A stretch of 19,457 nt of DNA, from assembly GCA_018376855.1 (NCBI GenBank), contig JAHAAN010000020.1:1-19457 (forward strand), in the 5' to 3' direction. The stretch comes from Clostridiales bacterium (lineage in GTDB: Bacteria; Bacillota; Clostridia; Christensenellales; QALW01). Numbering within the stretch: position 1 is the stretch's first letter; each line of letters starts with the position of its first letter. The notes below the pieces were generated by a model that was given only the letters and a program-made list of their open reading frames with translations, was not told the origin of the DNA and did no database searches. Below are positions 14,541 to 16,719 of the stretch, one piece after another. The position numbers and the translations under genes are program-made.

Positions 14541-14574
14541 GAAAAAAAGCTGCGAGCTTAAAAAAGTCCGCAGC
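14541..14574 (-). terminator. Rho-independent terminator immediately after the downstream WYL gene.
   Basis: The minus strand reads GCTGCG-gacttttttaagct-CGCAGC followed by TTTTTTT. The stop codon lies inside the hairpin. Confidence 0.55.
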
Positions 14575-15469
14575 CTCTTTGCCTTTGCAGGCGTTCTATG
14601 ATTAAATTTCTAAAACGCTCCGGTTCGGTTACCTCTATCAAAGGGCCAAAGCCCAAAACGCGTATGACCATTTCCGTTTCATCGTCCTTGTCGTACCGAA
14701 TATGCACAAGGTAATGCTTTTCATCGATCCGCTCCGCCCGCTTTTCAAAGTGCGCGAAGTGAAGCATGCAGCGCTCCAAGGCATTTCTTTCATCACAAAT
14801 GCGCAAAACAACGGTTCTTTGCGGCGGCGAAGAAACCACCGACGGTGCAAAACCGCACGCCGAGCCCTTCTCACAGGAGACGATCCGCGCAAGATTAACG
14901 GTTTCTCCGTACCGGCATCCGGTACTAAGCAAGCGAAACTTATCATCCTTTTCAGAATACTCTAACCGCACCGGCAAGACCGTCATCGTCAGCAGCTTGC
15001 CTTTGCGGTTAAGCATCTGAATTTTAAGCGACTGCCTATCCCGGACAGCCGACAGCGCCGTTCTGAACCGCGCAATATAGCCTTCGTCCTGATAAGGATC
15101 GCCGTCGCCGTATTTGTCATAAATAAAGCAGTCAGCCGCCTTGAAAAGCGGCTCCACACCCTCAAGGCCGCTTATTTCCATTCCAAACAGCCTGATGCGC
15201 GGGTCAAGCGATATGGCCTTTAGCCATTGCTTTTGAAGCAGCGTCAGCGGCATTGTCGGCTTATGCTTGATCGGTGTAGACAGATCGTTCCTTGCAAGCT
15301 GCCACTTTTCGTTTTTTAACGACGGAAGGATCGTCAGCACACTTTCGCCGAACGCATTTTCACAGACTATTTTATTTAATTCTTTTTCCGAAGCGCCGCC
15401 CTCTATCATTCTTGCGATGATTTTCGCCACCGCATTATAATAAGCAGAATAAAGCTCATTAAAAATCAT
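14558..15469 (-). CDS. WYL-domain protein with a C-terminal WCX domain, 303 aa. No obvious N-terminal HTH.
   Basis: The WYL-like core is LLTMTVLPVRLEYSEKDDKFRLLSTGCRYGETVNLARIVSCE. The WCX-like tail is MVIRVLGFGPLIEVTEPERFRNLIIERL. It overlaps the upstream WYL gene by 4 nt (ATGA). Confidence 0.6.
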   Translation of the reverse strand: MIFNELYSAYYNAVAKIIARMIEGGASEKELNKIVCENAFGESVLTILPSLKNEKWQLARNDLSTPIKHKPTMPLTLLQKQWLKAISLDPRIRLFGMEISGLEGVEPLFKAADCFIYDKYGDGDPYQDEGYIARFRTALSAVRDRQSLKIQMLNRKGKLLTMTVLPVRLEYSEKDDKFRLLSTGCRYGETVNLARIVSCEKGSACGFAPSVVSSPPQRTVVLRICDERNALERCMLHFAHFEKRAERIDEKHYLVHIRYDKDDETEMVIRVLGFGPLIEVTEPERFRNLIIERLQRQRGCGLF

Positions 15470-16719
15470 CGCTCCGCCTCCTCTATTCCATACATACGGT
15501 ACATCGCCTTTAAATCCTGTTTAAAAATATTTTCAACGGTACGGTTAGAAAAATGTATGCTCACAATCCTGCAAATAAAGGTTCTGATCCAAGGCAGCAT
15601 TTCCCCTGTATCATAAACATCGGCCGCAAAACGATAGGTTCGGTCATCGACTTTTTCAACGCTGCCGATTCGTTTTTCTCGTTCCAAACGCCGAACGATA
15701 TGCTCCTCGCCATAGCCGATCCGCACCGTAAAATCAACATGCTCAAGCTGCTCCTCACCGCGGCGTTTTCTTTTGGCCGCAACGCCCCACATTTTTGTCT
15801 GCATCACGTCAAGTTCAGCCCTCAGCTCATCGAAACGCAGCGCAGGCTCCTCCATCTTAATATCGGATAAATAATCAACGCGAAAGGACTTAATTTCATT
15901 AAACTCCGGCTGGTAAGCGAGCAGATGCTGCCTGCCGTTTTGAACGCTGATAAAAATGCGCAGCGGTATAATTCTGTTTTTCCTCGGTTCACCGGCACGG
16001 CGATTCAAATTTGAAACCGTGATCGCGCGCTTTTCACGCATTGCCTGAAAAAGCTGCGCCAGTATTTCGCTGTCCATAGCGCCGGTTATGTAATGATGCT
16101 TAAACGTGAAATGATCCTGACGGATCTCCTGCTTATCAAGCAGAAACGAACCGATAACTCCGCAAGGCGCAGCCTCGGAATAAAAATTCAGCACATCGCC
16201 AAGCTCCGGCAGCGCTATGTCATCGGCTCTGCGATAAATAACCCTTCTGCCCTGCTTTTGACTTATCACGACGCCCTGCTCGATGTATTCCTTTAATTTT
16301 TTTCTAACGGTCGATTCGTCAAACATCATCGGACTTTCAAAGTTAGACAAATAATTATCAATTTGTTTTAATATCTCCGGCAAAGAAAGAGCAACTTCAG
16401 GACAATGAAGAATATCAAACAATATAAAATGCAGCGTGATATCGCCGTCCGTAAAGCTTTTGGCTTTAAGCGCTTTATAAAAAGGATTGTGCTGCATCGC
16501 CCTGCTGTCTATGGAAATAAACACATTTTTGCCTTCGGGCGTGCGCACAAAGCCCATGTGGTCTCCGAGCCAGCTTTCCATTCTGCGGCGTTCGTCGTCA
16601 TATAAACGCGCGCTTTTCTTATCGTATTCTGCGCGGCTTTTAAAACCGTAAACATAAAATTCGCGCATATAGCTGCGAATCTTCTCAAAATTCTTAATAA
16701 GCTCACTGTATGACGACAT
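15466..16719 (-). CDS. HTH-WYL-WCX-type putative transcriptional regulator, 417 aa.
   Basis: A wHTH-like segment DESTVRKKLKEYIEQGVVISQKQGRRVIYRRA. A WYL core RIIPLRIFISVQNGRQHLLAYQPEFNEIKSFRVDYLSDI, which follows the P-x-R(L/I)...G.(W/H)(Y/L)L.AY...R.FR.D(R/Y) pattern. An RBS AAGGGA precedes the ATG. Confidence 0.6.
   Translation of the reverse strand: MSSYSELIKNFEKIRSYMREFYVYGFKSRAEYDKKSARLYDDERRRMESWLGDHMGFVRTPEGKNVFISIDSRAMQHNPFYKALKAKSFTDGDITLHFILFDILHCPEVALSLPEILKQIDNYLSNFESPMMFDESTVRKKLKEYIEQGVVISQKQGRRVIYRRADDIALPELGDVLNFYSEAAPCGVIGSFLLDKQEIRQDHFTFKHHYITGAMDSEILAQLFQAMREKRAITVSNLNRRAGEPRKNRIIPLRIFISVQNGRQHLLAYQPEFNEIKSFRVDYLSDIKMEEPALRFDELRAELDVMQTKMWGVAAKRKRRGEEQLEHVDFTVRIGYGEEHIVRRLEREKRIGSVEKVDDRTYRFAADVYDTGEMLPWIRTFICRIVSIHFSNRTVENIFKQDLKAMYRMYGIEEAER

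What the first reader, a model, noticed from the sequence alone, without database searches (positions are those of the whole stretch)
14558..16719. Tandem, translationally coupled WYL-domain proteins (PafBC-like pair) placed upstream of RtcB
Two different WYL-WCX proteins overlap by ATGA. One has wHTH segments, the other lacks an evident HTH. Paired WYL regulators are known as PafB/PafC heterodimers, which sense ssDNA in the actinobacterial DNA-damage response. A pair sitting upstream of an RNA ligase operon suggests analogous sensing of damaged RNA or nucleotides. The WYL motif variant is HLLAY rather than WYLxAY in one protein and FRLLS in the other.
Basis: partly seen in the sequence, partly recalled or inferred. 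Interest (0 to 1): 0.6.

Follow-up and report, generated by a model that had tools for sequence, protein, structure and literature searches.

The report
Paired WYL regulators of RNA repair
Two overlapping genes encode a PafBC-like pair of WYL sensor-regulators that sit, in dozens of gut Clostridia, directly in front of an invariant 20-base promoter box, which probably lets them switch on a tRNA-like RNA, a scaffold protein and the RNA ligase RtcB.

Summary
ORF-A (16719..15466, 417 aa) is a wHTH–WYL–WCX protein. ORF-B (15469..14558, 303 aa) is WYL–WCX with no HTH detectable by sequence. They overlap by ATGA.

In 80 species-level genomes A always precedes B, and the 4-nt overlap is kept in 62 of 69 full pairs. 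Natural A–B fusions exist in divergent lineages. One fusion folds confidently (pTM 0.80), and its best structural match is the naturally fused PafBC. By sequence and context, however, the pair are not PafB/PafC orthologues.

An invariant box, TCGCAGCTTTTTTTCCGTG (14537-14555), lies just after B. It forms the 3' half of the A–B terminator. It also sits exactly 20 nt upstream of a -10 hexamer in 76 of 77 cases. That promoter first drives a roughly 270-nt tRNA-like RNA (about 14504..14232), then SPFH and RtcB.

RtcB lies downstream in 40 of 47 loci with enough flank, and the scaffold is either SPFH or DUF2828-vWA.

Best reading: a heteromeric WYL transcription factor, more likely an activator, that controls an RNA-repair cassette. 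The ligand is unknown. I rate it a new variant of a known kind, of moderate interest.

The parts
15466..16719 (-). ORF-A, 417 aa. It has a basic, highly conserved N-terminal head (residues 1-90), an acidic PaaX/ArsR-like wHTH (about 91-165), a WYL domain (about 218-292, motif HLLAY) and a WCX domain (about 326-410).
   Evidence: Pfam and PADLOC. AF2 model m75278c40dbdc with Foldseek hits to DriD, PafBC, CapW, BrxR and WYL1. Charge profile. Conservation.
14558..15469 (-). ORF-B, 303 aa. Its N-terminal domain (1-128) matches no HTH family. It has a WYL domain (about 129-205, invariant LEYSEKDDKFRL) and a WCX domain (219-296).
   Evidence: Pfam WCX and the PADLOC WYL model. Alignment A1. hhalign register against A. 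Secondary structure of the B half of the fusion model.
15466..15469 (-). ATGA stop/start overlap between A and B, consistent with translational coupling.
   Evidence: A 4-nt overlap (ATGA, GTGA or TTGA) is present in 62 of 69 full pairs from different species.
14542..14574 (-). Intrinsic terminator of the A–B operon. The hairpin arms are GCTGCGGACTT and AAGCTCGCAGC, followed by T7. The 5' arm lies within the last codons of B and the loop spans its stop codon.
   Evidence: strand folding gives -22.9 kcal/mol, z -3.1. A complementary upstream arm is seen in other loci, including a compensatory change in L070.
14537..14555 (-). Invariant box TCGCAGCTTTTTTTCCGTG, a candidate operator of the A/B regulator. 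It spans about -51 to -33 of the downstream promoter.
   Evidence: The 18-nt core CGCAGCTTTTTTTCCGTG (14537-14554) matches once in the window. It is present in 71 of 78 species loci, at most 1 mismatch and nearly always exact, on the same strand after B. It lies exactly 20 nt from a TAnnnT hexamer in 76 of 77 cases. A box-seeded metagenome scan finds B upstream in 80 of 97 cases and repair genes downstream in 40 of 44.
14511..14519 (-). Extended -10 element TGGTAAAAT. No conserved -35 hexamer is present; the position reads GTGTTT here.
14232..14504 (-). Conserved tRNA-like non-coding RNA. It has a 5' stem domain, a T-arm (14340..14324), a 7-bp hairpin that covaries (about 14323..14301), a D-arm-like GCCAGTGGTTTGGT (14301..14288), a further hairpin and a terminator (14266..14232). 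The ends are predicted, not mapped.
   Evidence: ARAGORN calls odd tRNAs at the same position in related loci. The literature predicts a 'b7a-tRNA'.
12941..14044 (-). SPFH/Band-7 (slipin-like) protein, 367 aa, with no evident membrane anchor.
   Evidence: Pfam Band_7 at 1e-26.
11655..12863 (-). RtcB RNA ligase, 402 aa.
   Evidence: Pfam RtcB at 1.8e-57.
16869..16897 (-). Candidate sigma-70-type promoter of the A–B operon: TTGAAA, 17 nt, TATAAT.
   Evidence: Consensus scan, 11 of 12 matches. No operator is conserved upstream of A across species.

Best explanation
A and B are the two subunits of one heteromeric WYL-type transcription factor dedicated to an RNA-repair cassette. They are made in fixed proportion from overlapping genes.

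Proposed division of labour:
- A supplies DNA recognition through its basic, near-invariant N-terminal head and wHTH.
- B supplies a second WYL–WCX sensor module and a non-HTH N-terminal domain. In PafBC, by analogy, only PafB's HTH reads DNA and PafC's touches sigma.

The complex recognises the non-palindromic invariant box TCGCAGC-T7-CCGTG. This box sits at a rigid distance (20 nt) upstream of an extended -10 promoter that has no conserved -35.

When a nucleic-acid-type ligand occupies the basic WYL domains, the complex activates transcription. The ligand could be ssDNA or damaged-RNA fragments; it is unknown. The first product is a tRNA-like RNA. Read-through of that RNA's terminator then gives the SPFH scaffold and the RtcB ligase.

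Shown: domain content, pairing, fusions, box and promoter geometry, and synteny.
Inferred: physical heteromer, A as the box reader, activation rather than repression, the ligand, and read-through.
For: Domain content:
- Family scans identify WYL and WCX in both proteins.
- The model of A matches DriD, PafBC, CapW and BrxR.

Pairing and fusion:
- A lies directly upstream of B in 78 of 80 species loci; in the other two the contig ends before A.
- The 4-nt overlap is kept in 62 of 69 pairs.
- Natural A-then-B fusions with 30-45 aa linkers exist in several lineages. Seven fused proteins are 30-71% identical to each other.
- The fusion model has pLDDT 80 and pTM 0.80. Its top match is the fused PafBC 6sj9 at E 1.4e-19, aligned across both halves.

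Box and promoter:
- The box is almost always sequence-identical, although A and B are only about 70% and 60% identical to the window's proteins (medians).
- Its spacing to the -10 hexamer is fixed in 76 of 77 cases.
- It is present whatever the cargo: SPFH, DUF2828-vWA, or RtcB directly.
- It occurs twice where two cassettes follow (L056, L075).

Synteny:
- RtcB is downstream in 40 of 47 loci.
- In a search seeded only by the box, 80 of 97 hits have B directly upstream and 40 of 44 have repair genes downstream.

Plausibility of the mechanism:
- A residues 1-90 are the most conserved part of the protein and are basic, pI 9.7. Both WYL domains have pI about 10.
- Precedents: DriD sites lie at a fixed distance from -10 in promoters lacking -35 (PMC13004042). 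In PafBC only one HTH reads DNA (PMC8635444) and the two WYL domains are functionally unequal (PMC11804915).
Against: - No experiment or complex prediction shows A–B contact for the window's own proteins.
- TM-scores to PafBC are low (0.26-0.29), so the three-dimensional arrangement differs or is uncertain.
- The N-terminal head of A is modelled at low confidence in both models, so calling it the DNA reader is an inference.
- The promoter has an extended -10, and often a 4/6 -35-like GTGAAA that overlaps the box. It could therefore be constitutive and repressed, as with CapW and BrxR.
- Part of the box's conservation comes from its second role as a terminator arm and U-tract.
- The fused homologues are not next to RtcB, so the family is not specific to RNA repair.
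- 17 of 97 boxes have no B within 800 nt upstream.
Confidence: 0.6

Rival explanations
1. Same heteromer and same box, but the complex is a repressor of the CapW/BrxR type. It sits on the box, which overlaps the -35 position, blocks RNA polymerase, and leaves when a ligand binds the WYL domains.
For: The promoter has an extended -10 (TGG-TAAAAT in 51 of 77) and often GTGAAA (4/6) at the -35 position with a 17-nt spacer, so it may need no activator. CapW and BrxR are among the structural matches.
Against: The three bases downstream of the box, which would complete a -35, are not conserved. Zero variation in box-to-(-10) spacing across more than 70 species is typical of activator-dependent promoters and matches DriD promoters. 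The box is not palindromic, unlike the CapW and BrxR operators (that property is from my own knowledge). The top fold matches are the activators DriD and PafBC.
Confidence: 0.28
2. Only A is the transcription factor, acting as a homodimer. B is not a regulator subunit but an RNA-binding accessory of the repair particle, as WYL1 is for Cas13d. On this view B binds the tRNA-like RNA or damaged RNA and assists SPFH and RtcB.
For: B matches no HTH family. Its WYL domain is basic. WYL1 (6oaw) is among the fold matches.
Against: B is tied to A, not to the cargo. A and B stay overlapping while the cargo varies. A–B fusions occur in loci with no RtcB, SPFH or tRNA-like RNA. The non-palindromic box fits an asymmetric binder better than a homodimer.
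Confidence: 0.09
3. The adjacency to RtcB is incidental and the pair regulates some distal locus.
For: In 4 of 47 loci no RtcB or SPFH lies within the 6 kb held downstream. The fused relatives sit in other contexts.
Against: RtcB is downstream in 40 of 47 loci across different species. The box-promoter lies directly between B and the cargo everywhere. Where no RNA or scaffold gene intervenes, the box-promoter sits about 50 nt before rtcB (L033, L021, L045). The genes upstream of A differ from locus to locus while the A–B–box–cargo order persists.
Confidence: 0.03

Closest known systems
PafBC (actinobacterial DNA-damage regulator; PDB 6sj9, 9fnd)
   Same: Two adjacent paralogous WYL–WCX proteins that also occur as a natural fusion. 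A single asymmetric, non-palindromic DNA element sits near or instead of the -35 position. Only one subunit is equipped to read DNA. The best fold match of the fused homologue is 6sj9, at E 1.4e-19.
   Different: There is no detectable sequence relationship. The hosts are Clostridia, not Actinobacteria, and the genes are not in a pafA/proteasome locus. B has lost a recognisable HTH, whereas PafC keeps one. A carries an extra basic N-terminal head. The box lies at about -51 to -33, not at -26. The target is an RNA-repair cassette, not a DNA-damage regulon. The ligand is unknown.
DriD (Caulobacter WYL activator; PDB 8tp8, 9pfq)
   Same: It is the best fold match for A alone, at E 7e-10. Its binding sites lie at an identical distance from the -10 in promoters that lack a consensus -35, the same geometry as the box here.
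   Different: DriD is a homodimer with two equal wHTH domains on a repeat-type site. It senses ssDNA and controls DNA-damage genes.
CapW and BrxR (WYL repressors of CBASS and BREX)
   Same: The wHTH–WYL–WCX architecture. Each gene sits directly upstream of the system it controls. Both appear among the fold matches.
   Different: They are homodimeric repressors on palindromic operators (from my own knowledge). They are single genes, not a pair.
RtcR-controlled rtcBA operon (CARF-AAA+ sigma-54 activator)
   Same: It is the functional analogue: a ligand-sensing regulator encoded next to rtcB. RtcR is activated by tRNA fragments ending in a 2',3'-cyclic phosphate (PMC7790460, abstract).
   Different: The sensor domain (CARF versus WYL), the activation mechanism and the sigma factor all differ. 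There is no RtcA here.
Band-7 – b7a-tRNA – RtcB and Rsr – YrlA – RtcB repair modules (Burroughs & Aravind 2016; Chen et al. 2014)
   Same: The cargo matches what was predicted: RtcB next to a Band-7/SPFH protein and a tRNA-like non-coding RNA (quoted in bioRxiv 10.1101/312249). The SPFH scaffold can be replaced by a vWA protein (DUF2828/DUF7788) accompanied by one to three tRNA-like genes.
   Different: The 2016 paper could not be read here, so I cannot say whether it already describes the paired WYL genes or the box. The RNA in this window is not called a tRNA by ARAGORN or Rfam. It carries extra 5' and internal arms.

Membership tests
WYL-domain transcription factors (wHTH–WYL–WCX) | WYL (Sm-like) ligand-binding domain | tested here: met
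   A: Pfam PF13280 at 34.6 bits against a 21.8 cut-off. B: PADLOC WYL model at 5.9e-9, the same register as A by hhalign, and a BLASTP cross-match at E 0.004. B does not reach Pfam's WYL model.
WYL-domain transcription factors (wHTH–WYL–WCX) | C-terminal WCX domain | tested here: met
   B: PF25583 at 25.6 bits against a 23.9 cut-off. A: only 14.8 bits, but its model aligns through WCX with DriD C-domain structures at TM 0.65-0.73 normalised to the target.
WYL-domain transcription factors (wHTH–WYL–WCX) | N-terminal winged HTH DNA-binding domain | tested here: inconclusive
   A: weak PaaX/ArsR matches over residues 129-167, an H-H-H-E-E topology, and full-length Foldseek alignments to DriD and PafBC. 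B: no HTH family matches. In the fusion model the B half begins with three helices and a short hairpin, which could be a degenerate winged helix. I could not inspect the coordinates.
PafBC | Two adjacent paralogous WYL–WCX genes, fused in some species | tested here: met
PafBC | Sequence membership (orthology to PafB/PafC) | tested here: not met
   No PafB, PafC or any other WYL-regulator chain was found by phmmer or hmmsearch against all PDB sequences. No NCBIfam match. Foldseek identity is 10-19%.
PafBC | Actinobacterial host and location in the pafA / Pup-proteasome locus | tested here: not met
   All 80 related loci come from Clostridia/Bacillota MAGs. The window's neighbours are SPFH, RtcB and an RlaP remnant, with nothing proteasome-related.
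PafBC | Forms a heterodimer | not testable with these tools
   Indirect support only: the conserved overlap, the natural fusions, and the fusion model's pTM of 0.80.
PafBC | ssDNA ligand bound across both WYL domains; activation by sigma adaptation at a -26 element | not testable with these tools
   The box here lies at about -51 to -33 with a different sequence. The ligand is unknown.
Band-7 / tRNA-like RNA / RtcB repair module | SPFH/Band-7 gene adjacent to rtcB | tested here: met
   Seen in 24 of 47 related loci with enough flank.
Band-7 / tRNA-like RNA / RtcB repair module | tRNA-like non-coding RNA next to the Band-7 gene | tested here: met
   The T-arm GCGGGTTCGAATCCCGC is conserved 170-350 nt after B in most SPFH loci. 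Covariation is seen in the T-stem and the following hairpin. The RNA has its own promoter and terminator. The overall cloverleaf is not established, and there is no ARAGORN or Rfam call in the window.
RtcR–rtcBA system | CARF–AAA+ sigma-54 activator RtcR and the cyclase RtcA | tested here: not met
   None of the window ORFs scanned matches these families.

The most novel reading that the evidence does not exclude
The A/B heteromer is an RNA-sensing WYL transcription factor. One or both WYL domains would bind broken RNA ends (for example tRNA halves with a 2',3'-cyclic phosphate), or the locus's own tRNA-like RNA once it is nicked. The tRNA-like RNA would then act as a decoy or sentinel, and its damage state would feed back on the promoter that makes it. 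This would be a WYL-based counterpart of RtcR–CARF signalling, and the first WYL transcription factor with an RNA ligand.
Probability: 0.25. Interest if true: 0.8.

Novelty: new variant of a known kind. Interest (0 to 1): 0.55.

Why it matters
What induces bacterial RNA repair is understood only for the proteobacterial RtcR system. This locus offers a second, unrelated control circuit that is widespread in gut Clostridia, with thousands of protein clusters.

All of its parts are now laid out at base resolution:
- two regulator subunits;
- one invariant 19-nt box;
- a rigid promoter;
- a tRNA-like RNA as the first product.

That makes three questions directly testable with simple EMSA, reporter and ligand-binding assays: the signal, the role of the HTH-less subunit, and the role of the tRNA-like RNA.

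It also extends the PafBC principle beyond Actinobacteria and beyond DNA damage. That principle is a heteromeric WYL factor with divided labour between its subunits.

Tried and rejected
- **Heterodimer-style prediction.** I folded a natural fusion homologue instead.
- **Sequence searches of A and B against all PDB chains**, as single sequences and as profiles. Nothing relevant was found.
- **Profile-profile comparison of the A and B families.** Only the WYL region aligned, and weakly, at E 0.095.
- **Rfam on the gap**, at gathering and permissive thresholds. Only partial T-arm-type matches appeared, with no Y RNA, tRNA or ribozyme family.
- **A closing 'acceptor' stem for the tRNA-like RNA.** The window's minimum-energy fold predicts CACUGCG pairing with CGCCAGUG. 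The variable positions do not covary, and RNAalifold does not keep the stem, so I do not claim a cloverleaf.
- **The CUGAUGAG-containing insert in the long form of the RNA.** I considered it as a hammerhead or K-turn. There is no Rfam support, so I dropped it.
- **A conserved operator upstream of A (autoregulation).** None was found; only the ribosome-binding site is shared.
- **The key prior paper, Burroughs & Aravind 2016.** It is not held, so prior art on the WYL pair could not be checked.
- **A box scan of viral contigs.** There was one hit, which carries the same A–B–box–RtcB module. The system is therefore not typically phage-borne.
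Full report
**1. The observation**

They overlap by ATGA.

- ORF-A passes Pfam's WYL model (34.6 bits, residues 218-289). It has weak WCX and PaaX/ArsR-type winged-helix matches.
- ORF-B passes Pfam's WCX model (25.6 bits, residues 219-296). It matches a PADLOC WYL model at 5.9e-9 over residues 128-296, and it matches no HTH family.
- The motif variants HLLAY (A) and FRLLS (B) are real. They sit in equivalent positions by profile-profile alignment and by a BLASTP cross-match between A's WYL domain and the B half of a fused homologue.
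- Both proteins belong to large families of about 7,000 clusters each. Where a source names them at all, they are labelled only 'WYL domain-containing protein' or, once, an ArsR-family regulator.

Downstream on the same strand come a 514-nt gap, an SPFH/Band-7 gene (14044..12941) and RtcB (12863..11655).

**2. The pair is a conserved unit**

A degenerate-pattern scan of one genome per species with the B family returned 80 loci, all from Clostridia/Bacillota MAGs.

- An A homologue lies directly upstream of B in 78 of the 80. In the other two the contig ends before A.
- In 62 of 69 loci with both ORFs complete, the genes overlap by 4 nt (ATGA, GTGA or TTGA).
- A is the more conserved partner, with a median identity to the window protein of about 70% against about 60% for B. 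Its first 100 or so residues are nearly invariant.

**3. Evidence that A and B work as one protein**

An exhaustive profile search with the B family found 1,658 representatives. Several are 685-799 aa proteins in which a full A-type half is followed by a 30-45 aa linker and a full B-type half.

- P0374 is 31% identical to A and 39% identical to B. P0367 is 38% identical to A.
- A search seeded with P0374 found seven such fusions that are 30-71% identical to each other. They are therefore genuine gene fusions in several lineages, not frameshift artefacts.

I folded P0374 instead, with an alignment that mixed fusions and separate A and B homologues.

- The model has mean pLDDT 80 and pTM 0.80.
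- Its best PDB match by far is the naturally fused PafBC of Arthrobacter (6sj9, E 1.4e-19, aligned over 730 columns). DriD, mycobacterial PafBC, CapW and BrxR follow at about 1e-7.
- The TM-scores to 6sj9 are low (0.26-0.29). The similarity therefore lies in domain order and folds, not in an identical quaternary arrangement.

The model of A alone is poor (pLDDT 61) but matches DriD, PafBC, CapW, BrxR and WYL1.

In the fusion model the B half begins with three helices and a short hairpin, followed by a helical linker, WYL and WCX. This could be a degenerate winged helix. I could not inspect the coordinates, so the point stays open.

**4.

*(a) A terminator for the A–B operon.* The last codons of B pair with the sequence just after its stop codon to form a stable hairpin followed by T7 (-22.9 kcal/mol, z -3.1).

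*(b) An invariant box.* The descending arm of that hairpin, the T-tract and the next five bases make up the box TCGCAGCTTTTTTTCCGTG (14537-14555).

- Its 18-nt core is present in 71 of 78 species loci, nearly always exactly, always on the gene strand and usually 4-20 nt after B's stop.
- It persists where it lies far from B and has no visible hairpin partner (L026, L079).
- It occurs twice where two cassettes follow (L056, L075).

*(c) A rigid promoter.* Exactly 20 nt downstream of the box lies a TAnnnT hexamer in 76 of 77 cases, mostly TAAAAT. TGG precedes it in 51 of 77, giving an extended -10. The three bases that would complete a -35 hexamer are variable. The box therefore occupies about -51 to -33.

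*(d) A conserved structured RNA.* The transcript from this promoter runs from about 14504 to about 14232. It contains:

- a 5' stem domain;
- a perfect tRNA T-arm (GCGGGUUCGAAUCCCGC);
- a 7-bp hairpin directly after the T-arm, with compensatory changes in three pairs;
- a D-arm-like GCCAGUGGUUUGGU;
- a variable hairpin and an intrinsic terminator.

It is not called a tRNA by ARAGORN or Rfam in this window. A preprint on YrlA quotes Burroughs & Aravind (2016) as predicting exactly this arrangement: RtcB next to a Band-7 protein and a 'band 7-associated tRNA'.

**5. The cargo varies while the regulator and box do not**

- Of 47 loci with at least 4.5 kb downstream, 40 carry RtcB, and 24 of those also carry SPFH.
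- In about 15 loci SPFH is replaced by a roughly 490-aa DUF2828/DUF7788 vWA protein. It is preceded by one to three tRNA-like genes with odd anticodons: Ile-TAT, Phe-AAA, Arg-TCG and Ser-CGA.
- In three loci the box-promoter sits about 50 nt before rtcB itself.
- The sequence upstream of A shares nothing across species except the ribosome-binding site. The transferable unit is therefore A–B–box–cargo.

A metagenome scan seeded only with the box gave an independent check. Of 97 boxes with at least 900 nt upstream, 80 have B directly upstream. Of 44 boxes with at least 3.5 kb downstream, 40 have SPFH, RtcB or DUF2828 downstream. Rare rearrangements also appear, such as the box upstream of A (L182) or the order box–cargo–A (L094).

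The fused A–B relatives are not next to RtcB. One faces a cluster that contains Cas10-palm, Metallophos and MJ1673-family genes. The regulator type is therefore reused for other stress or defence loci.

**6. Mechanism**

The most economical reading is a heteromeric WYL transcription factor.

- A's N-terminal 90 residues are its most conserved part and are basic (pI 9.7).
- A's Pfam-detectable wHTH (residues 91-170) is acidic.
- B's N-terminal domain is neutral to acidic.
- Both WYL domains are basic, with pI about 10.

A non-palindromic box fits an asymmetric binder. PafBC supplies the precedent on three points:

- only PafB's HTH reads DNA, while PafC's acidic HTH contacts sigma region 4 (PMC8635444);
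- one ssDNA strand threads across both WYL–WCX modules;
- the two WYL domains are functionally unequal (PMC11804915).

DriD-dependent promoters place the binding site at an identical distance from the -10 and lack a consensus -35 (PMC13004042). That is the geometry seen here.

I therefore favour ligand-dependent activation, at roughly 2:1 over repression. The extended -10, and the partial -35 that overlaps the box, keep a CapW/BrxR-type repressor model alive.

Two points are inferences. The ligand is unknown. Expression of SPFH-rtcB by read-through of the RNA's terminator is not shown either; the loci where the box-promoter directly precedes rtcB show only that this promoter is the rtcB promoter.

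**7. Comparison and novelty**

The pair works like PafBC but is not a PafBC family member. There is no sequence relationship to any solved WYL regulator. The phylum, the genomic context, the operator and its position all differ, and B lacks a recognisable HTH.

The cargo corresponds to the Band-7/tRNA-like/RtcB module predicted in 2016. A later paper from the same group cites that work for WYL domains in connection with 2',3'-cyclic RNA ends. Some association of WYL domains with RNA repair may therefore already be in print. I could not read the 2016 paper.

I found no description of the following in the searchable literature:

- the obligate A/B pairing with an HTH-less partner;
- the natural fusions;
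- the invariant box doubling as a terminator;
- the rigid promoter.

I classify the finding as a new variant of a known kind, with moderate interest.

Noticed in passing
window 14232-14504 (-): A conserved, roughly 270-nt tRNA-like RNA lies between the WYL pair and SPFH. It has a perfect T-arm, a covarying hairpin, a D-arm-like element, and its own promoter and terminator. It probably corresponds to the 'b7a-tRNA' predicted in 2016 and never validated. Short (about 135 nt) and long (about 190 nt) core forms exist in other species.
   Followed up: yes
window 11162-11600 (-): Just downstream of rtcB lies a truncated remnant of an RlaP nucleotidyltransferase (PF10127, 'RNA repair pathway DNA polymerase beta family', E 3e-26). 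It covers only profile positions 115-176, and stop codons flank the frame. It looks like a decayed third repair gene.
   Followed up: partly
window 12941-14044 (-), residues 1-145 of the SPFH protein: The SPFH protein has no obvious membrane anchor. Read by eye, its N-terminal extension carries three similar stretches of about 35 aa (…NGKYVKMLTAGKY…, …NGKFVSVLRQGKY…, …NQKFVRILDAGTY…).
   Followed up: no
L018, L023, L027-L029, L036, L017, L080 (between B and the DUF2828 gene): In loci where a DUF2828/DUF7788 vWA protein replaces SPFH, ARAGORN calls one to three tRNA-like genes with unusual anticodons (Ile-TAT, Phe-AAA, Arg-TCG, Ser-CGA). They lie downstream of the same box-promoter. Their transcripts start with a different conserved leader (…ATCACGAAAGGCGCAGACAGCAA…).
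   Followed up: partly
L081/L082 7001-9319; L083 7001-9436: Naturally fused A–B regulators (772-811 aa) are not next to RtcB. One is divergent from a cluster encoding a 1,048-aa protein, a Metallophos protein, an MJ1673-family protein and a Cas10-palm protein. This suggests the same regulator type controls defence-like loci.
   Followed up: partly
L056 7028-8164; L075 6968-8149; L017 7683-8909: Some loci insert a protein of about 380-400 aa between a first and a second box-promoter, ahead of the repair cassette. The L056 copy matches AAA/STAND-type ATPase families; the L017 copy matches no Pfam family and the L075 copy was not scanned.
   Followed up: partly
window 16720-18480: About 1.7 kb of AT-rich sequence (35-42% GC) upstream of A has no ORF of 80 aa or more, no Rfam match and no repeats. 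Its nature is unexplained. The best A–B promoter candidate lies at its edge (16897..16869).
   Followed up: partly
window 18484-19394 (+): A second SPFH/Band-7 gene appears split into two ORFs overlapping by 4 nt (18484-18807 and 18804-19394). The first part looks hydrophobic by eye, and the second part carries the Band_7 domain from profile position 44 onward. It may be a frameshift or a sequencing error.
   Followed up: no
window 400-5011: Prophage-like remnant: Bro-N protein, Cro/C1 HTH and a tyrosine integrase (3410-4534). It abuts a cluster of five tRNA genes (4591-5011, minus strand), a likely integration site.
   Followed up: no
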